The notes under the pieces are model-generated. The model saw nothing but the letters and a program-made list of their open reading frames with translations, had not been told where the DNA came from and did not search any database. Below, in pieces: positions 12,447-61,946 of a stretch of 64,000 bases of DNA. The DNA is from Octopus vulgaris. Its lineage: Eukaryota. The DNA is taken from positions 30,938,001-31,002,000 of the forward strand of contig OX597815.1 in NCBI GenBank assembly GCA_951406725.2, written 5' to 3'. A program made the translations under genes and the position numbers. The stretch's first letter is position 1. Every line of letters begins with the position of its first letter.

Positions 12447-12610
12447 TAGGCGCAGGAGTGGCTGTGTGGTAAGTAGCTTGCTATCCAATCACACGGTTCC
12501 AGGTTCAGTCCCACTGCGTGGCATCTTGGGCAAGTGTCTTCTGCTATAGCCCCGGGCCGACCAATGCCTTGTGAGTGGATTTGGTACACGGAAACTGAAA
12601 GAAGCCTGTC

Positions 12611-13614: not shown

Positions 13615-15897
13615 ACTCTTTTACTCTTTTACTCTTTTACCTGTTTCAGCCATCCGGCTGAGGCCATGCTGGGGCACCGCCCTTGTTGCTACCCTCTCTA
13701 AGTCCAGTTTGCCGTGGCTGGCCACTGATCTAAGAGAGAGTTTGTAGCTGCTGCCCTTAGGTTACCTTCGTACCTTGCAGTGGGTTCATCTGGGATCCCG
13801 GAAAGCAGCTTGTCTAGATGTTTTTTGAAAATGTCCACATCCGCATCATGTAGATCTCTTAGTTTTCTTGGCAGTTTGTTGAACAGCTGAGGGCCCCTGA
13901 ACCTCAGGCTATTACAGTATCTGCTCCTTACCCTGGATGTGGAAGACGGGACCTTTGGCACCACACAGTGACGTCCTGTACGGGGATTGGAACAGCTCTC
14001 AATTCCAAAATTTGGTGCTAGTCCCTCCAGGATTTTCCATATGTATATCACTGCATATCTCTCTCGTCTTCGTTCCAAGGAGTACAAATTGAGTTCCCTA
14101 AGCCTCTCCCAATAGTTCTTTTCTTTCATGGTGGAAATCCTCTTGGTGAAATGTCTTTGGATTGTCTCAAGCTCTGTGGTTAGTTTGACACTATGCGGTG
14201 ACCACAGTTGGGAGCAGTAGTCCAGGCGGCTTAGGACAAATGTCCTCCATAGTGTCAACATGGTCTCGCAGTCTCTTGTCCGGAATGTCCTCAGGATCCA
14301 GCCAGTGAGTCGTCTGCACATTTTCGCCACCTTCGCGATGTGTGAAGAAAAAGATGCATCGTCACTCATGTCTATCCCCAGGTCCCGTATTGATTTCGAT
14401 ACTGGGATTTCGATCCCTCCTGGACCAGTATAGTTGTGTTGTAATGCATATGTGTTTACAGCTTGATATTGTAAGGCTTGAAATTTACCAGCATTAAATT
14501 GCATGTTGTTGTCTTCAGCCCATTTGTATATGGCATCCAGATCTTGTTGTAAAAGGTCAGCATCAGCTGGGTTTTTTGATTGCCTGTGCTACCTTTGTGT
14601 CATCAGCATAGCTAGTGAGGGATGTTGTTTGTGCTACCAAGGGCATGTCAGAGAGCGCCACCAAAAACAGCAAGGGTCCCAAGACTGTGCCCTGTGGCAC
14701 CCCGCTTGCTATTGGTGTCTTTCCCGAGAGGGCTCCATTGGCTGCAACCATCTGGCTTCTGTCCTTCAGGAAGTCATGTATCCACTCACCTACTTTTCCT
14801 GTTATGCCAAGTCTGAGTAATTTGTGACATATCACTCCGTGGTCGACTTTGTCAAAGGCCTTCGCAAAGTCGAGATATACCACATCCACCTGTGAGCGAT
14901 CCAGTAGTTGTTTCAGTACCCAGTCGTAGTGTTGTAACAGCTGCGTAAGGCAGCTTCTTCCTGGGCGAAAGCCATGCTGTGTGTCAGTGAGACGGTTAGT
15001 TTCTTCGAGGAACGTGATCAGTTTTTTTCTGATGATTCGTTCCATGACCTTACTTATGTGTGACGTCAGGGAGACTGGCCTGTAGTTTTTGGCCTCTGCT
15101 CTACTCCCTCCTTTGTGGATAGGGCATATGGTGCCTTCTTTTAGCGCCCTGGGCAGTTTACCGTTAGCCAAGGAACCACTGAAGAGCTTCTTCAGTGGTC
15201 CCGCTAGGGCATGCCTGCATGTTTTTAGGAGGACTGCTGGGAATCCATCTGGTCCAGCAGCTGAGTTTATTCTCATTTCTTCTATGGCAGATATTACATC
15301 CCTCTCTGTTATGTCTATGTGGTCGATGGTTGTTGTTTGGTTTTGGAGTGTTGTGGCATCAAAGAAAACTTCTGGGTTTGTGATTTGCATGTGCCCCAGA
15401 GGGGATGTGAACACACTTTTATACTGTTCCTTTAGTATTTCACTTATCCCTTGGGGGTCCTCAGTTAGAGAGCCCTTTTTATCAAAGAGTGGGCCAATCT
15501 TGCAGTGTACCGAGGTGGTTTCTTTCGCAAATTTAAAGAAAGCTTTAGGGTTTGTTTTAATATTCTCTATGGCCCTGGCTTCTCTCTCTGCCCTCTCCTT
15601 CTCATAGGAAAGTTTGAGTGCAGTTTCCGTTTCAAAAAGTTTCAGGTGGAGTCCCTCATTGTTTCTCTGCCGTGCATTCAGTTGCTTCGAGAGCTTAGCT
15701 CTTCGCCTCATAAGTATTTTCCTGTCTCTGGGAATAACGTTCCTATGCCCGCTGGCTTTTTTCTCCGGGACAAACTTATGGCATATGTTCTGTATTGTTG
15801 TCATGAAATGTTGGAAATGTGTGTTGGTGTCTTGTGTGGTGATGAAGTCACTCCAGTCATGTTTTCGGATCTCTTCGTTGATCTTCTTCCAGTTTGC
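13615..15897 (-). mobile_element. 5'-truncated non-LTR retrotransposon (CR1/L2, Jockey-group LINE): RT, C-terminal domain and short 3' UTR
   Basis: RT motifs NYRPVSLTS, QHGFRPGRSC, YLDFAKAFDKV, GVPQGTVLGP, YADD. C-terminal SLERRRERY. 3' tail ends in (gtaaaaga)3. Both ends abut TA-rich microsatellites. Confidence 0.95.
13698..15897 (-). pseudogene. LINE ORF2 reverse transcriptase, about 730 codons with a single +1 frameshift; endonuclease domain absent
   Basis: ORFs 14563-15804 and 13698-14504 join (KVAQAIKNPADADLLQQDLDAIYKWAEDNNMQFN) if one A of the A6 run at 14572-14577 is removed. The frame extends upstream as [15 protein letters not shown] to 15897. Confidence 0.9.
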
Positions 15898-18054: not shown

Positions 18055-19252
18055 GTATACATATATGTATATTATATATAGGTGTGTATGTGTGCTTGCG
18101 TGTCTTTCTATGTTATGCGGTTTAGATATATTGTGTGTGTGTGTTTTAGATATATTATTACATGCGTATCATACATATCAATATATCTTTTCATATGTAT
18201 GTTGCGCGTAGGAGCATGTGTGGGTGAGAGAAAGACAAAATGGGTTCGTGTCTAGAGCTGTTTGCATATATATGTTATGAATAATTATAGGAAAGTTGCA
18301 TCGAGATAAATATACGTACATCTTCCTACGTAAAAGACAATTAATGTTTGTAAACGTATACATGACTAGTAAAATCTTGCTGTAATTACATCAGGAAAGG
18401 ATAGCGAATTATCAGAATGGGCAATTTTTATTACTTATAATATTCTTCTAAATTAGGGCACTGAAAACTCACAATTGCATATTGCTTTCTGGCTGGTTAG
18501 ATACTTCTTTATCTGAATCACATCTGTTCCGTTATTTTTTTCATTTCTGTTTTATTAATTTTTTTTTATTTTTATTTTTCATTATTTATTTATTTTATCT
18601 CTGTTTCTTTCTTCTCTCTTTTTCCTTCTGTTTTGCATTGTAGCTGGACAGTAGTTTTTCAAGAGACAGCCCAGAGCTAAATTTCCTTGAGAGATTTTCA
18701 TATCTAACGAATATAATGAATTTAGGAAAGAAGGAGAAAATTAGATTTTTACCAAATAAATATCTTTTTTCTTGTCGCAGTCCCACATATAATACAAAAA
18801 TTACATTTTAAAAATGTATAAATTCGCTGCATTTATAGCATGCACACACACATACATATGTATGTGTGTGCGAGTGTATTCTCTTATATTTTTACTAGTC
18901 TTAGCCATTTGACTGCGGCCATGCTGGTACATATATACGTGAATATCATGTGATTTTTAGTAGCCTTTATGAATGAATATGAATGAATATATATATGTAT
19001 GCATAAAAAACAGATAAGAAACAAGTATGTCCAGGTATTACGGCCGTTTCAAGCGGCTCTATTTGATGTGCGTATGCATATATATTACATATGAATATAT
19101 ATGTGTGTGTGGGAGAGAGAGAGATTTATATATATATACACCCATCTCTATTTAAATTTCTCCCTCTCCGTCGCATGTATATATATATATATTTTTTCTA
19201 GTTTCTGCTCAGAGCTGCGGCCATGCTGATGCACCGCCGTTAATTATCTTTG

Positions 19253-19323
19253 TACATCAGCAGGGAAACGAACCCGGGCCGCCCGCGTGGCAGGCGAGCA
19301 TTCTACCACTGAACCACCGATAT
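19253..19323 (-). pseudogene. tRNA-Gly(GCC), probably a pseudogene
   Basis: Minus strand atatcggtggttcagtggtagaatgctcgcctgccacgcgggcggcccgggttcgtttccctgctgatgta. D and anticodon arms are canonical for metazoan tRNA-Gly(GCC); A58->T in the T loop/B box, a T-stem mismatch and an altered acceptor stem. Confidence 0.85.
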
Positions 19324-23073: not shown

Positions 23074-23382
23074 ACATGAGAGTGAATGAACAAACGAAAG
23101 AAAGAAGCGCTCAACACATTCGCATTGAAAAAAATGTGAATGAGCTCAGGATGAGTTTTGGTTTCCTCGCTGCTATAAAGCTGTCGACGGCTGGCAATCC
23201 AAAAGTTCCAGTTCATATGCCATGTATAAATTAATATATATGCCTTCAACTGAAAAGTATTAAAAACTCCTTCAGTTAAATATTTAAACGTTTTTATATA
23301 ATTTTTTACATAATAACAAACATTAATGTATAAGAGGCGGCGAGCTGACAGAACCGTCTTGCAACGTCTTGACGCTCTGTAC

Positions 23383-23969
23383 GTTGGTACAGAATCGATG
23401 AGCTTTTACCTTCCTTGAGTTGTCTCCAATGTTCATTCACCCGCTCACCAATGCTTCTTGCAGTTTCCCCTACGTATGTTACTGTCTTGTTACTGCATTG
23501 TCCCTCTATACATCTTATACTATAGACCACATTTCTGGCTTTACAGTTCGTTTGTGGGCTAAATCTACATACAGTGCAATAGTTATCCGTACAGAGAGTT
23601 CTACTAAAAGGATAGGTTCTACCAATTATAGATCTGATAGGGTTGCCTGGCTTTTCAACAACCTTAATTCTTAGTTTAAGTTTAAGTTTATCTAGGGTCC
23701 TTCTAAAGCGGTACGCTAGTTCACCTCCAGGGGTGGTGTCAACGAACATGACACTCTGGTATTTATGGCTATCATACCAAGAGTTGGCCTTCCTTATTTT
23801 CTTTTTTGTCCTTTCTATAGTGTTCCATGACTTGTTCCTATAGAGTGGGCAAATCCCATTCCTATCATTACATAATATATTATCAAATTTCTTCATGGCT
23901 CCTTTGTATACTCTGATCCTTTCTTTATGGCTGTAACCTGAGAACTGCATGCGGTGAATGAAATACTGT
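23383..23969 (-). pseudogene. PLE RT-thumb/linker and N-terminal half of a GIY-YIG endonuclease
   Basis: [12 protein letters not shown]...KVVEKPG...C-x4-C-x2-C...C...VVY-x3-C-x4-C...YVGET-x6-R-x2-EH. Confidence 0.88.
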
Positions 23970-23970
23970 A

Positions 23971-24200
23971 TGAATGAACATTGGAGACAACTCAAGGAAG
24001 GTAAAAGCTCATCGATTCTGTACCAACACGCCGAACAAGAACACGGGGGATCAATCAATAACATAGAGATTAAGATATTGTCCACACATAGAACAGATGC
24101 AACAATTAGACAAATTACAGAAGCTACACATATAATAGAAAATAAACCTAGCCTGAATAGAAAACTAGAATGGAGCAATAGCGCACACCACAACATATGA
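23971..24200 (+). pseudogene. C-terminal half of the same GIY-YIG endonuclease
   Basis: [24 protein letters not shown]...[17 protein letters not shown] with the conserved E and N; stop at 24198-24200. Confidence 0.85.
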
Positions 24201-24717
24201 CAATAGTGGATCCTGCAAACATAATAAATACACAGGTAATTAAAGAAATAGAAATGAATATCTATGTGTATGTATATGTGTATATATATGTATATGTATA
24301 TGTGTATATATGTGTGTATATATGTATATATATATATGTATATGTATGTGTATGTATATATATATATATATGTATATGTATATTCTTTTTTTTTTTTTTT
24401 TTTTCTCGATTAGATTTATTATTATTATTACTAATATTGTTGTTATACATACATACAAGCATATGTAATGATAATAATGGGTGGATGTAAACACATGAAC
24501 AAAATTAGAACAAAAGCAACAACAACAAAAACAAAATACAAATTACAAGAATGTATATAACCAGAAGATACAAATATTACAGACATGCCCCCCCAAACAC
24601 TAAATAAACATAGACGCACATAGAGATATAAGCATGCGCAAATGAAGACATACAATAGAAATACAAAATGGCTGACGGTTAGTAAGGAGAGACACAAGTA
24701 AGTGAGAAGAAAACAAA

Positions 24718-53451: not shown

Positions 53452-53903
53452 TAGGCGCAGGAGTGGCTATAGGCGCAGGAGTGGCTATAGGCGCAGGAGT
53501 GGCTATAGGCGCAGGAGTGGCTGTGTGGTAAGTAGCTTGCTAACCAACCACATGGTTCCGGGTTCAGTCCCACTGCGTGGCATCTTGGGCAAGTGTCTTC
53601 TGCTATAGCCCCGGGCCGACCAATGCCTTGTGAGTGGATTTGGTAGACGGAAACTGAAAGAAGCCTGTCGTATATATGTATATATGTATGTGTGTGTGTG
53701 TGTTTGTGTTTGTGTTTGTCCCCCTAGCATTGCTTGACCACCGATGCTGGTGTGTTTACGTCCCCGTCACTTAGCGGTTCGGCAAAAGAGACCGATAGAA
53801 TAAGTACTGGGCTTACAAAGAATAAGTCCCTGGGTCGATTTGCTCGACTAAAGGTGGTGCTCCAGCATGGCCGCAGTCAAATGACTGAAACAAGTAAAGA
53901 GAG
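53452..53903 (+). mobile_element. SINE family A with its first 18 bp present four times in tandem
   Basis: (taggcgcaggagtggcta)x3 followed by the normal head. Confidence 0.93.
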
Positions 53904-56557: not shown

Positions 56558-56613
<56 letters not shown>

Positions 56614-56651
56614 CGGCGCAGACGTGACTGTGTAGAAAGAATCTCGCTCCC

Positions 56652-57467
56652 GGTTTCCCAGGATTCATTTGGTTTGTTAGTTTGGAGCGAGACGGACGTA
56701 TTTTTGGGCTGTGTGACGATTTTCCTCTTGTGATGGAGGGTCGTCGAGCGATAAGTTGGGAAGAGTTAAGGTGTTTTTCCCTAGAATGTGATACGTTTGA
56801 TGAGGAATTGGTTGAGTACTTGAACAAGATGGACAAGGAAATAGAGAAGAAGAATTATGCAGCGGCAGCAAGAGGAGAAAAAAAAATTGAAGAAATAAAC
56901 CTGGAAGAGCTGAGCAAGTTCAAGGAAATACTTAAAAGGGAAGGGAACAAAGTGAAGGTGTTCCCCACCCCGAAAAGCAGTATTAAAAGACAAGGCAGAA
57001 AAGACTATTGTTTATAGAACTTACGCAACAGCAACAAGGAAAATTGAAATAGTGTCGGATGCACCGGAGGAAAAGGCACAGAGGTCAGTCTGGCTGGAAA
57101 TATCATACCTTGTCAGAGGAAGGAAATATGGAACGGTAGAGGTGCAGCTTAGAGACATAACAACTGCTAAACTGTACTCGGCCACACCGTTGAAAACGGA
57201 TGGGGTAGTACTGCTACACGTGTACTTTGGGACACGGACTACCAGAGTGAGGGTGGAGGACATACCACCAGAAGTAAATGATGTTGCAAAGGGTTCAAAA
57301 AATCGCTCGGAGGTGAGGCGGGGCGACTTCATTTCATCTTTCCTGACATAAACACATATAGGGGACAACACATATTAGGGACAAAAAGAAATAAATGAAA
57401 TGAAATGAAGTTACACCATGAAAGATGAAATGAAGTCGCCTATTTATGGCCAATTTTCATGAAATAT
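56652..57467 (+). mobile_element. ORF1-only L1/Tx1-like element, unit 1 (5' UTR, degenerate gag-like ORF1, 3' tail)
   Basis: EELVEYLNKMDKEIEKKNYAAAAR...ISYLVRGRKYGTVEV...TRVRVEDIPPEV; ends atggccaattttcatgaaatat. Confidence 0.75.
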
Positions 57468-57481
57468 AGAAGCTCGCTTCC

Positions 57482-58725
57482 AGTTTATGGTCGTTCAGTT
57501 GTAGTGTTGGATTTGTTTGGTACACACTGTTTTTGGCTGTCCTGGTGAGCGATGTTTTGCCTCTTGAGTGTCGAGCGAGAAGTTGGGAGAAGTTAAAGTA
57601 TTTTTCGCAAGAGTCTGATTCGTCAGAGGAAGAATTAGTTGAATACTTGAACAAGATAGACAAAGAGATGGAGAAGAGTGATTATGCAGCAGCGGCTAGA
57701 GAAGAAATATTGAAGAAGTGAATCTGAAAGAGTTGAGTGAATTGAAGGAAATGCTTGAAAGGGAGGGGAACGATGTGAAGGTGTTTATCGCCCCCAAAAC
57801 AAAATAAATATTAAAGAACAAGGAAGACAGGACGATTGTCTAAATAACCTACCCTACAGCAACAAGGAAAATTGAAGCAGTATCGGAGGCACAGGTGGAA
57901 AAGGCACTGAAGTCAGGTTTGGCAGGAGATATCATACCTTGCCAGGGGATGAAAATTTGGAAAGGTGAAGGTGCAGTTTAAGGAGATAGCAACTGCCAGA
58001 CCACTGCTCGGCCACACTGCTGAAGACAGACGTGGTGGTGCTTCTACCCATGTACCTTGGGAGGTGTACTTCCTGGGTTCGGGTGTAAGACATACCGCCA
58101 GAAGCGAATGTGGCTTGGCTGGTGGCTGCCTGCTGGACATTGAAGAGAAGGTGGTTGTTCTGCAGGCCACCAAAACGCCCCATGGAAATTAGAAAAGGCA
58201 AATCCTTGAAATGGTGGTACAGGTCGCGGAGGAGGACCTAGAAAAGATGATAGAAAATATCTCAGTAGGAGAAACTACCTTGAAATTTAGAGTGGAGGGA
58301 AGGATTACGCCCTGAAGGGCCACATAAGAGCTGAGTGCCCTCCATCACCAGAAAAGGCTGCGGAGAGTGAAAAAGTGATAGCCGCTCCACAGCCTGCAGA
58401 GGGAAAACACATGATACTACAGTGGAAGACAAGTACCAGCATTGAAGAAGAGACAAACGACAGCTGGGAGATAGCAGAGAATAAAAGAAAAAGGACACAT
58501 GTGGTAAAAAATGACCCCTCCAGCACCCACCCGGCCCTCACCCACAACCACTCTACCCCCAACCATGCCCTACAAACTCCAACCATCCTCATGCCCAGTC
58601 TGACAGGAAAAAAAAACAATTGCAACCACACAGGAACCTCAAATTTGCCCACCTCCGCCCTGTAAGGAAAAATATGTATTGATGTACAATGGACAGGATG
58701 AGGAACTGGATAATGAGGTAAATTC
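57482..58725 (+). mobile_element. ORF1-only L1/Tx1-like element, unit 2
   Basis: Paralogous ORF1 (EELVEYLNKIDKEMEKSDYAAAAR) with a partial zinc knuckle GHIRAECP at about 58318-58341. Confidence 0.75.
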
Positions 58726-58739
58726 GTTTATCGTTATTC

Positions 58740-59677
58740 CGGTTTATCGTTATTCAGATGGATTGTTGGTTTTGTTTGGTACACACGTGTTTTTTTTTTG
58801 GTTTTTTTGCAATCTTGGCGGTGCAACGTCTTCCCTTTGGTTTAATGGAGGGGCTGAGCAAGTTCAAAGAAATACATATAAGGGAGGGGAACGACATGAA
58901 AGTGTCCCCAGCCCAAACAAGTGTTAAAGGATAAGGAAGAGAGAACGATTGTTTACAGAACATACGTGGTGGCAACAAGAAAAATAGAAGTAGTGATGGA
59001 GGCATAAGTTGAAAAGGCGTTGAGGCCCGTCTGGCAAGAGATATCCTAGCTTGCCAAGGGAAGAACGTACAGAACGGTGGAAGTGTAGTTTCGGGAGTTA
59101 GCTACCGCCGGACTGCACTCAGCCACACCATTAAAAACTGAAGAAGTGGTGCTTCTACCTGTATACCTTGGGAGACGTGTTTCCAGAGTTAGTGTAGAAG
59201 ACATACCACCAGAAGCTGATGGCTGCCATACTGCTAGGCATGGAAAAAGAGGTGGTGGTCCTGCAGGCCACCAGAACACCCTACAGTAACTGGTAATGGC
59301 AGAGACTGAACGTGGTGGTATAGATTAACCCAGAAGATATTGAAAGTATGGTGGAAACAATCACGGTTGCAGACGTGACGCTGAAAGTCAGAGTGGAAGG
59401 GAAGATACGACGGTGCTATAAATGTGGTCTGAAAGGCCAATTAGAGTGGATTGTACTCCACCACCTGTGAAGACTAAAGAAAGGCTGAAAGGCAAGAGAG
59501 GGAGAAGGTTGGTGCTTCACTGCCCACGGAGGCTGAGGAAAAGTACGAGAAGGGGCCGAACGGCTTCATTCCATTTCTTCATTATATTCAATTCATCTTT
59601 TCCATTCGTTTGCTTTTTTCCCCCACCATGTGCTGTCCCCTCTATGTACGGCCTTCATGGCCAATTTCCTGAAATAG
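58740..59677 (+). mobile_element. ORF1-only L1/Tx1-like element, unit 3 with 3' tail
   Basis: VRVEGKIRRCYKCGLKG../IRVDC (frameshifted CCHC knuckle) at about 59390-59455; pyrimidine-rich 3' UTR ending tgtcccctctatgtacggccttcatggccaatttcctgaaatag. Confidence 0.75.
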
Positions 59678-59804
59678 AGAATCTTGCTTCCTAAACACAT
59701 GACTCACTGCGTGGCACCTTGAGCAAATTTATTCTATGAGAGCCACGGCCCGACTAAAACCTTGTGATTGGATGTGATTGAGGGAAACAGAAAGAAACCC
59801 GTCG

Positions 59805-59854
<50 letters not shown>

Positions 59855-60282
59855 TGTGTGTGTGTATGTGTGTGTGTGTGTGTCACCACCATCGCTTGAC
59901 AACCGATGCTGGTATGTCTATGTCCCCTGGCAAAAGGGTCCGATAGAATAAGTACTAGGCTTACAAAGAATAAGTCCTGGGGTCGATTTCTTCTACTGAA
60001 AGGCGGTGCTCCAGCATGGCCGCAGTCACGTGACCGAAACATAGAAAATGAATAAGAACAGAATAACGAAGATATATATATATATATTCCATGCAATATA
60101 AACATAACGTCACAAGAAATTTGAAAAGCTACACGCGAAACCGGTATTTCTTTTAATTTATGTCATTATAAGAAGGAAAAAAATTTTTTTTTTTTAATTT
60201 TCTAATATTCTTCAGACATATTGACGCAAATATATATATTTTTTAATATTCAAGCCTTCTGTCGTTTTTTCGCTCTACTATT

Positions 60283-61424: not shown

Positions 61425-61581
61425 AAATTATTTACATTTTGATGGATTTTGTCCTCATCTTTGTTCTTAACACAACGTTTCGGCTGATATACTCTCCAGC
61501 CTTCATCAGGCGTCTTGGGGAAGTTTCGAACCTGGGTTCTCATTCCTGAGGTATTTTTCGATGTTGTTGTTGTTATTATTA

Positions 61582-61635
<54 letters not shown>

Positions 61636-61946
61636 TCACTGCCTGGAATCGAACTCGGAATCTTGGGGTTAGTAGCCCGCGCTCTTAACCACTACGCCAT
61701 ATGCCCGTGGACATATCGAGGGCTACTAACCGCAAGATTCCGAGTTCTGCTAATAATAACAACACCGAAAAATACCTTAGGAATGAGAACCCAGATTCGA
61801 AACTTCTCCAAGACACCTGATAAAGGCTGGAGGATAGATCAGCCGAAACGTTGTGCCAACAACAAAGAAGATGAGGACAAAATTCGTCAAAACCTAAATA
61901 ATGTAAATAATATACATATTTCCTCATCTCTTAAATATAGAACTGT
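61425..61946. mobile_element. Head-to-head inverted dimer of a tRNA-headed, hammerhead-bearing short element with 12-bp TSD
   Basis: TSD attatgcacgat at 61413-61424 and 61947-61958; symmetry centre about 61707; tRNA-like head 61632-61707 on minus; hammerheads at 61470-61513 (minus) and 61814-61855 (plus). Confidence 0.85.
61470..61513 (-). ncRNA. Type-I minimal hammerhead motif, canonical core
   Basis: acgc-CTGATGA-a-ggctg gagagtatat cagcc-GAAA-cg-TT-gtgt. Confidence 0.8.

What the first reader, a model, noticed from the sequence alone, without database searches (positions are those of the whole stretch)
56613..59691. Repeated insertion of ORF1-only L1/Tx1-like elements into the same 14-bp site of a SINE tRNA head
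Seen: a SINE A is split just after its A box. The 14-mer agaa(t/g)ct(c/t)gct(t/c)cc, which is part of the SINE head, occurs at 56638-56651, 57468-57481 and 59678-59691. That is at the left edge, between units 1 and 2, and at the right edge; the latter two directly follow the element 3' end (atggccaattt...tgaaata). The units are diverged paralogs with 5' UTR, gag-like ORF1 (CCHC knuckle remnants in units 2 and 3) and no ORF2. Established: Tx1-clade LINEs are often target-specific for repeats and small-RNA genes. Inference: at least two independent target-primed insertions at the same nucleotide, implying a sequence-specific endonuclease that uses an abundant SINE (or its parent tRNA) as a landing site. 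The unit 2/3 junction lacks the 14-mer and instead has a gtttatcgttattc duplication.
Basis: partly seen in the sequence, partly recalled or inferred. Interest (0 to 1): 0.8.

Follow-up and report, generated by a model that had tools for sequence, protein, structure and literature searches.

The report
Retrotransposons stacked inside a SINE head
In what is probably an octopus genome, three old, broken one-gene jumping elements sit head to tail at one exact base of a very common short repeat; many relatives, including an intact full-size element that likely supplies the missing enzymes, use the same base, and the young full-size family sits in the newer version of the repeat and was never seen in the older one.

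Summary
Observation confirmed; the 14-mer is 14 of a 15-bp target duplication just after the A box of the genome's abundant tRNA-like SINE. The three units are decayed copies of one ~1.7-kb ORF1-only family (two RRM folds + CCHC predicted for the family) from different subfamilies, not sisters. 29 of 38 dispersed loci lie at the same base. An intact L1-group partner (APE-RT-zf-RVT, 5.44 kb, copies ~99% identical) uses it too: 99 of 100 3' ends. Additions: (1) young copies hit only the newer SINE variant (0 of 94 in the older one; 14% of sites are older type); (2) full-length copies bring their own few bases of target at the 5' end (38 of 38); (3) a tail motif antisense to the target switches with it, but the window's family lacks it. 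The unit 2/3 junction is a 440-bp loss plus a local duplication. Parent-tRNA targeting is unsupported; Tx1 membership is untested. The scan reported this system several times before on other DNA of this genome. Tx1 elements aimed at other transposons and half-L1s are known; SINE-head targeting was not found in 10 paper searches. New variant of a known kind.

The parts
56615..56636 (+). 5' part of host SINE head (A box), older A-type variant, after an (AT)n run
   Evidence: matches heads of intact SINE copies at 12449 and 53508, 76%
56637..56651 (+). target 15-mer, left copy
56652..57466 (+). unit 1: ORF1-only element; 5' UTR and ORF1 front (to 57280), ~870-bp deletion, 3' UTR with an inversion at about 57354-57439, terminal TGAAATA
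   Evidence: blastn to full-length copies L331, L344, L362; nearest ORF1 relatives L054, L016
57467..57481 (+). target 15-mer, middle copy
57482..58727 (+). unit 2: ORF1-only element, intact 5' end, decayed ORF1 with CCHC remnant, last ~440 bp missing
   Evidence: 77% to full-length L002/L331 over reference bases 2-1236
58726..58740 (+). unit 2/3 junction: 14-bp copy of unit 3's own first bases; its last four bases equal the last four of the target 15-mer
   Evidence: same four-base leader in off-site copies L341, L349
58741..59676 (+). unit 3: ORF1-only element of another subfamily, two internal deletions (~140 and ~610 bp), CCHC remnant, intact 3' tail
   Evidence: 83% to L257, L354, L356; clade with L029/L030, support 100/100
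59677..59691 (+). target 15-mer, right copy
59692..60055 (+). rest of the host SINE (B-box region partly deleted, central (TG)n, tail)
   Evidence: 77-80% to other SINE copies in the window

Best explanation
The array is three decayed copies of a ~1.7-kb ORF1-only retrotransposon family, from different subfamilies, sitting at one fixed base of a SINE head, and they likely arrived by separate target-primed insertions using enzymes borrowed from an L1-group (probably Tx1-type) LINE that targets this base. Shown: fixed site, 15-bp duplication, one orientation, non-sister units, an intact APE-RT partner with a similar 3' end at the same site, mixed arrays elsewhere. Inferred: the partner's endonuclease nicks the bottom strand right after the A box and the top strand 15-16 bases further on; reverse transcription starts on the RNA end ...UGAAAUA; the cDNA of a full-length RNA ends in a few target-like bases and pairs with the overhang, so every insertion rebuilds two usable sites and invites the next one. 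The ORF1-only families keep their own RNA-binding protein in cis and take ORF2 in trans. The enzyme that moved these particular copies was an older relative (like L031, L032, L051) matched to the older SINE variant, not today's young family. After or during insertion, unit 2 lost its 3' end and the junction was patched with a copy of unit 3's first bases.
For: Family of the window: 38 other loci read; 25 have the 5' end and 20 the 3' end at the site, 29 have either. 230 exact tail+site junctions genome-wide, control 0; 511 older-type and 1,421 newer-type short junctions, controls 5 and 42. Tree of 28 rows: unit 3 in a 100/100 clade with L029/L030; units share 72-77% while best dispersed relatives are 86-88%. 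Partner L097: ORF1 frame 488 aa with zf-CCHC, ORF2 frame 1150 aa with PF03372+PF00078+PF13966, best solved relative human L1 ORF2p E 7e-67 versus R2 6e-20; ORF1 35% identical to the family's ORF1; nine full copies 98.4-99% alike. 99 of 100 partner 3' ends read (of 104) begin with the site, 90 continue into SINE body. Truncated copies carry private target variants on both sides (L265, L295; L283 nearly), which shows true duplication. 38 of 38 full-length partner copies have the same last target bases at the 5' junction although 23 of 38 3' copies differ. ORF1 of the family shows more third-position than first- or second-position changes (14-23 versus 2-10 in 65 codons, five overlapping pairs). 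Mixed arrays: L101, L106+L254, L259, L357, L365.
Against: 7 of 38 family loci are off-site; 5 of these have a shortened end with an A-rich tail (L335, L341, L349, L352, L358). Some arrays are homogeneous (L315-L317 98% alike; a triple at C9 shares a frame break), so local duplication or template jumping also builds arrays in this genome. The unit 2/3 junction has no full 15-mer, so the third insertion is less clean. No nick, no RNA end and no trans-mobilisation was observed. No intact partner of the right age was found; its copies are fragments.
Confidence: 0.85

Rival explanations
1. The array arose in one insertion event: the reverse transcriptase jumped between three different RNAs, or copied a read-through transcript of an existing mixed array.
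For: Arrays are more common than site occupancy predicts: 6 of 29 on-site family loci against about 2.3% occupancy (511 of 21,842), and 4 of 94 loci against about 1.1% (1,421 of 131,333). The odd unit 2/3 junction looks like an aborted restart. Extra-template 5' junctions are a named class for R2 (PMC11331408, passages).
Against: It needs three subfamilies 72-77% alike to be active together; the unit 1/2 junction has a complete 15-mer as expected from insertion into a rebuilt site; no second locus with the same unit order was seen among 38.
Confidence: 0.1
2. One insertion was duplicated locally and the copies then diverged.
For: Homogeneous tandem runs exist elsewhere (L315-L317; C9 triple).
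Against: Each unit is closer to dispersed copies on other contigs than to its neighbours, and unit 3 sits in a 100/100 clade without them; units 1 and 2 have different subfamily 5' ends.
Confidence: 0.02
3. Same insertions, but site choice comes mainly from something other than endonuclease base reading: tethering to Pol III factors on young, active SINE heads, or pairing of element RNA with the site.
For: The site lies between A and B boxes. A tail motif antisense to the site matches the site type in 19 of 19 newer-type and 16 of 17 older-type junctions that have it, of 30 each. Copies with an altered 3' end are off-site (5 of 5). Positions 7-15 of the site tolerate changes.
Against: 0 of 30 tRNA genes read carry the 15-mer and none of the 100 partner ends was in a tRNA gene. 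Inner array sites lack an adjacent A or B box yet are used. The window's family lacks the tail motif (0 of 11 tails, and units 1 and 3) and still hits the site. One subfamily with the newer motif sits in both site types (L303 versus L043, L055). Independent pairs: 4 same way, 0 opposite, 1 no change; not significant.
Confidence: 0.25

Closest known systems
Transposon-targeting Tx1 elements: Xenopus Tx1 into Tx1D; crocodilian Tx1-Mar into Mariner-N4_AMi, Tx1-8_Crp and Tx1-4_AMi into LTR elements, Tx1-9_AMi into Harbinger (PMC4494074; passages and section 15 read)
   Same: L1-group LINE with apurinic-type endonuclease whose copies prefer a site in another mobile element; passengers share the site.
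   Different: Target here is the tRNA-like head of a SINE; specificity is near absolute (99 of 100); passengers are ORF1-only elements rather than SINEU; head-to-tail mixed arrays; site variant follows SINE subfamily turnover.
HAL1 (half-L1) of mammals (PMC5753468, passages; the primary paper was not held)
   Same: Non-autonomous L1 derivative that encodes only ORF1; arose several times.
   Different: These are site-specific, several deeply split families (25-46% ORF1 identity) share one site, and ORF1 is RRM-RRM-CCHC rather than the mammalian type (mammalian architecture recalled).
Small-RNA-gene-specific Tx1 families such as Keno (U2), and microsatellite-specific Kibi/Koshi (as cited in PMC4494074)
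   Same: Fixed site in a multicopy target.
   Different: Target is a selfish, fast-changing repeat, not a conserved gene; sampled tRNA genes lack the site.
R2 5' 'anneal' junctions (PMC11331408, passages) and SART1/R1 target-like RNA bases (PMC7265360, passages)
   Same: Element RNA carries target bases that pair at the junction.
   Different: Here only a few bases, in an L1-group element; no ribozyme match at the 5' end; the tail motif is antisense to the site, not a sense copy.

Membership tests
L1 group of non-LTR retrotransposons (partner) | ORF2 with N-terminal apurinic-like endonuclease, RT and C-terminal zinc motif, after an ORF1 | tested here: met
L1 group of non-LTR retrotransposons (partner) | ORF2 closer to L1 than to R2 | tested here: met
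   E 7e-67 versus 6e-20; only these two kinds of LINE have solved structures in the list
L1 group of non-LTR retrotransposons (partner) | Target-site duplication and 5'-truncated copies | tested here: met
Tx1 clade | RT tree groups with named Tx1 elements | not testable with these tools
   homologues returned were unnamed apart from an Argonauta and a Paramuricea protein
Tx1 clade | ORF1 with RRM domains and CCHC knuckle (feature recalled) | tested here: met
   model pLDDT 73 of the partner ORF1 matches tandem RRMs, best E 7e-5; zf-CCHC at cut-off; single-sequence model of the family ORF1 failed
Tx1 clade | Target preference (over 20% of flanks in one repeat, criterion of PMC4494074) | tested here: met
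   29 of 38 and 99 of 100
HAL1-like ORF1-only element | Full-length copies hold ORF1 but no ORF2, between target duplications | tested here: met
   1.68-1.81-kb copies, no ORF2 hit below E 0.77 in 10 copies and the array
HAL1-like ORF1-only element | ORF1 homologous to an autonomous partner's, and shared 3' end | tested here: met
   35% identity, E 5e-34; shared terminal hairpin and TGAAATA
HAL1-like ORF1-only element | Mobilised in trans by the partner | not testable with these tools
   inferred from shared site, end and mixed arrays
HAL1 proper (mammalian L1 derivative) | Derived from mammalian L1 | tested here: not met
   nearest named relative is an octopod protein, 64%; parallel origin
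tRNA-derived SINE (host) | tRNA-like head with A and B boxes | tested here: inconclusive
   best alignment to tRNA-Lys-like genes, score 48.5-51.5 versus 42.5 best of 200 shuffles; no Rfam tRNA hit
LINE/SINE partner pair with shared tail | SINE tail homologous to the LINE 3' end | tested here: not met
   no blastn match better than E 0.15 between one SINE copy and two element tails

The most novel reading that the evidence does not exclude
A LINE lineage and its ORF1-only passengers have chased one SINE through successive subfamilies: the SINE changed bases inside the cut site, and the LINEs re-tuned each time, partly through short RNA tags (a 5' leader that rebuilds the site and a tail motif antisense to it). 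Target choice would then be partly programmed by RNA in an L1-group element, and LINE attack next to the promoter would be a driver of SINE subfamily turnover.
Probability: 0.25. Interest if true: 0.82.

Novelty: new variant of a known kind. Interest (0 to 1): 0.58.

Why it matters
It turns the usual relation round: a SINE serves as landing pad for a LINE, which splits the SINE's promoter. Because target and attacker both left dated layers in one genome, it offers a natural series for asking how an apurinic-type endonuclease changes specificity, a question that is hard to test with conserved targets such as rDNA. An intact, young, near-perfectly site-specific L1-group element is also directly assayable. 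The window's array itself is an old dead example.

Tried and rejected
Local tandem duplication: rejected by tree and identities. Parent tRNA as target: 0 of 30 tRNA genes carry the 15-mer, but only 5-6 isotypes were returned. This SINE as passenger of this LINE by shared tail: no match. Ribozyme or known RNA at the partner's 5' end: nothing near a gathering score; SINE in Rfam: nothing. Extra T in 5' junctions as an inherited mark: one form is scattered (5 changes for 5 rows), the other only partly clustered (8 changes for 13 rows; 12 of 500 shuffles as low), so left open. Pfam on family ORF1 fragments: only a sub-threshold zf-CCHC. Single-sequence fold failed, pLDDT 31. Naming homologues to fix the clade failed. 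One search returned nothing through a script fault and was redone. Independent-pairs test of tail motif versus site type is not significant.

Full report
Observation. Each is the end of a 15-mer at 56637, 57467 and 59677; 0 of 500 shuffles of the region gave three such matches. The outer two join the array to the two halves of a SINE that has about ten other copies in the window. The window is G000:C2:30938001-31002000 of a 2.8-Gb assembly. The nearest named protein relative of the partner element is from Argonauta hians (64%), so the host is probably an octopod.

Anatomy of the units. A search with unit 2 gave 42 matches, 38 loci outside the window (163 candidates, 40 scored, so a lower bound biased to unit-2-like copies). 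Full-length copies are 1.68-1.81 kb, with a 5' UTR, one ORF and a 3' UTR ending in a small hairpin and TGAAATA, flanked by the 15-mer. ORF2 gives no tblastn hit in 10 such copies or in the array. Against them, unit 1 has lost ~870 bp between short microhomologies and has an ~86-bp inversion in its 3' UTR; unit 2 stops at reference base ~1236; unit 3 has lost ~140 and ~610 bp. At the unit 2/3 junction, unit 2 runs into a 14-bp copy of unit 3's first bases, whose end equals the last four bases of the target. The family ORF1 shows third-position excess between copies, which suggests it was under selection while the family spread without ORF2 (inference; pairs are not independent). The homologous partner ORF1 folds as two RRMs plus a CCHC knuckle; the single-sequence model of the family's own ORF1 failed.

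Independent origin. In a 28-row tree of a ~380-bp ORF1 stretch, unit 3 lies in a 100/100 clade with L029 and L030; unit 1 groups weakly (82/94) with L016 and L054; unit 2 is unresolved. Units share 72-77% with each other and 86-88% with their best dispersed relatives. Local duplication is therefore rejected for unit 3 and unlikely for units 1 and 2.

Site specificity of the family. Of 38 loci, 25 have a 5' end at the site, 5 a readable 5' end elsewhere and 8 no readable 5' end; 20 have a 3' end at the site, 5 elsewhere and 13 none; 29 have either end at the site, 7 are off-site, 2 unreadable. L347/L351 and L337/L345 are probably duplicated pairs. All 20 loci with the normal end are on-site and of the older SINE type; all 5 with a shortened end and A-rich tail are off-site, one with a clean 17-bp duplication. 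Genome-wide there are 230 exact tail-plus-site junctions (control 0). They belong to several ORF1-only families, 25-46% alike in ORF1, and to ORF2-ending elements.

The partner. A search with one ORF2 end found a young family. L097 is 5.44 kb with frames of 488 and 1150 aa: zf-CCHC; endonuclease, RT and zf-RVT. It is far closer to human L1 ORF2p than to R2. Its ORF1 is 35% identical to the family's. Nine full copies are 98.4-99% alike. Of 104 exact 3' ends I read 100: 99 begin with the site, 94 match it in register at <=3 changes, 90 run on into SINE body, 6 into another element's 5' end, 1 is unrelated. Older ORF2-bearing fragments sit in the older site type (L031, L032, L051). Clade: L1 group shown; Tx1 likely but untested, as no named reference was obtainable.

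Tracking of SINE variants. The SINE has three variants inside the 15-mer, with median pairwise identity 0.80 (older type, 30 copies), 0.87 (21) and 0.92 (9). Exact 16-base cores number 21,842 older and 131,333 newer; 32-base matches 3,363 and 54,990. None of 94 young partner sites is of the older type; binomial P is 5e-7 at 14.3% and 0.004 at 5.8%. This exceeds simple availability but could also reflect decay or chromatin of old copies. Conversely, 20 of 20 on-site 3' ends of the window's family are older type, which mainly reflects age.

RNA-borne target bases. In 38 of 38 full-length young copies the 5' junction ends in the youngest variant's bases, although 23 of 38 3' copies carry another variant (these loci were chosen to be rich in variants). 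Truncated copies instead repeat private variants on both sides (L265, L295). So the 3' copy is the target and the last few bases of the 5' copy come with the element, as in R2 'anneal' junctions (PMC11331408, passages). The old family has the matching leader even off-site (L341, L349), and so has unit 3. An earlier scan note (e1-8667107) pointed to a tail motif antisense to the site; I tested it: 19 of 19 newer-type and 16 of 17 older-type junctions bearing the motif match their site, of 30 each. Against a strong role: the window's family lacks it (0 of 11 tails and units 1, 3), one subfamily with the newer motif uses both site types, and independent pairs give 4 for, 0 against, 1 neutral, not significant. 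Target-like RNA bases aid priming in SART1 and R1 (PMC7265360, passages).

Arrays. 6 of 29 on-site family loci are arrays against ~2.3% occupancy, and 4 of 94 loci in the first 100 newer-type junctions against ~1.1%; occupancy rests on exact-match counts and is rough. Some arrays mix families and the partner (L101, L106, L259, L357, L365); some are homogeneous runs. Rebuilt sites seem favoured, or template jumping contributes; I could not separate these. One shared base in the outer two 15-mers hints that unit 1 came first; this is weak.

The host. The head aligns best to tRNA-Lys-like genes among 30 read, none of which has the 15-mer (few isotypes). Its tail does not match the LINE tail, so I found no sign that this SINE is the LINE's passenger; earlier notes that report a SINE with a similar tail may concern another SINE, which I could not check.

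Literature. PMC4494074 (passages, section 15) lists Tx1 families that target DNA transposons, LTR elements, U2 genes and microsatellites, none a SINE in what I read. PMC5753468 (passages) defines HAL1. PMC13282606 (first third read, term search of the whole text) counts 13 recently active L1-Tx1 families in Octopus vulgaris and never uses the word 'target'; its supplements and repeat library were not seen and may bear on novelty. PMC4758252 (passages) cites three tRNA-derived octopus SINEs; I did not match this SINE to one. Ten searches (listings only unless stated) showed no report of a LINE specific for a SINE head. Repbase, Dfam and subscription papers were out of reach. The scan's own notes describe the same system at several other places in this genome and similar cases in other genomes; they are not independent evidence.

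Verdict. New variant of a known kind: target-specific L1-group LINE plus half-element passengers, with a SINE head as target. Confidence 0.85; interest 0.58; the co-evolution and RNA-tag reading has probability 0.25.

Noticed in passing
window 13698-15897 (-): 3' part of another LINE with long open RT frames (444 and 296 aa), only 24% identical to the partner ORF2; a different, CR1-like group by recall.
   Followed up: no
window 19252-19323 (-): ARAGORN tRNA-Gly(GCC) call; the sequence is decayed at both ends and is followed by a SINE-tail-like piece, so it may be a pseudogene or a SINE head.
   Followed up: partly
window 53490-53530: An intact young SINE directly preceded by the first 15 bases of another SINE head and ATA: possible SINE-into-SINE insertion at a different base.
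   Followed up: no
window 23306-24409 (-): Open frame ending in a GIY-YIG-like motif (recalled), probably a Penelope-like element end.
   Followed up: no
window 61452-61874: Inverted pair of 124-bp arms, 87% complementary, around an (ATT)n run; looks like two opposed copies of another repeat.
   Followed up: no
L335, L341, L349, L352, L358: Family copies with a shortened 3' end and A-rich tail are all off-site: a sub-lineage that lost specificity or was moved by another LINE.
   Followed up: partly
L337 and L345, 5' flanks: Two off-site copies share about 100 bases of upstream flank on different contigs; a family fragment captured in another repeat.
   Followed up: partly
L106+L254 (G000:C1 about 223.688-223.703 Mb) and L315-L318, L370: Young arrays: at least five ~2-kb ORF1-only units plus a full-size element; another with three 98%-identical units plus a different family.
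   Followed up: partly
5' junctions of L261-L300, L091-L105: 18 of 38 full-length partner copies have one extra T at either of two places in the 5' target copy; origin unexplained.
   Followed up: partly
L299 (G000:C13 about 64.560 Mb): A truncated partner copy inserted in a short tandem repeat that happens to resemble the site, with a 16-bp duplication: sequence alone can suffice without a SINE.
   Followed up: partly
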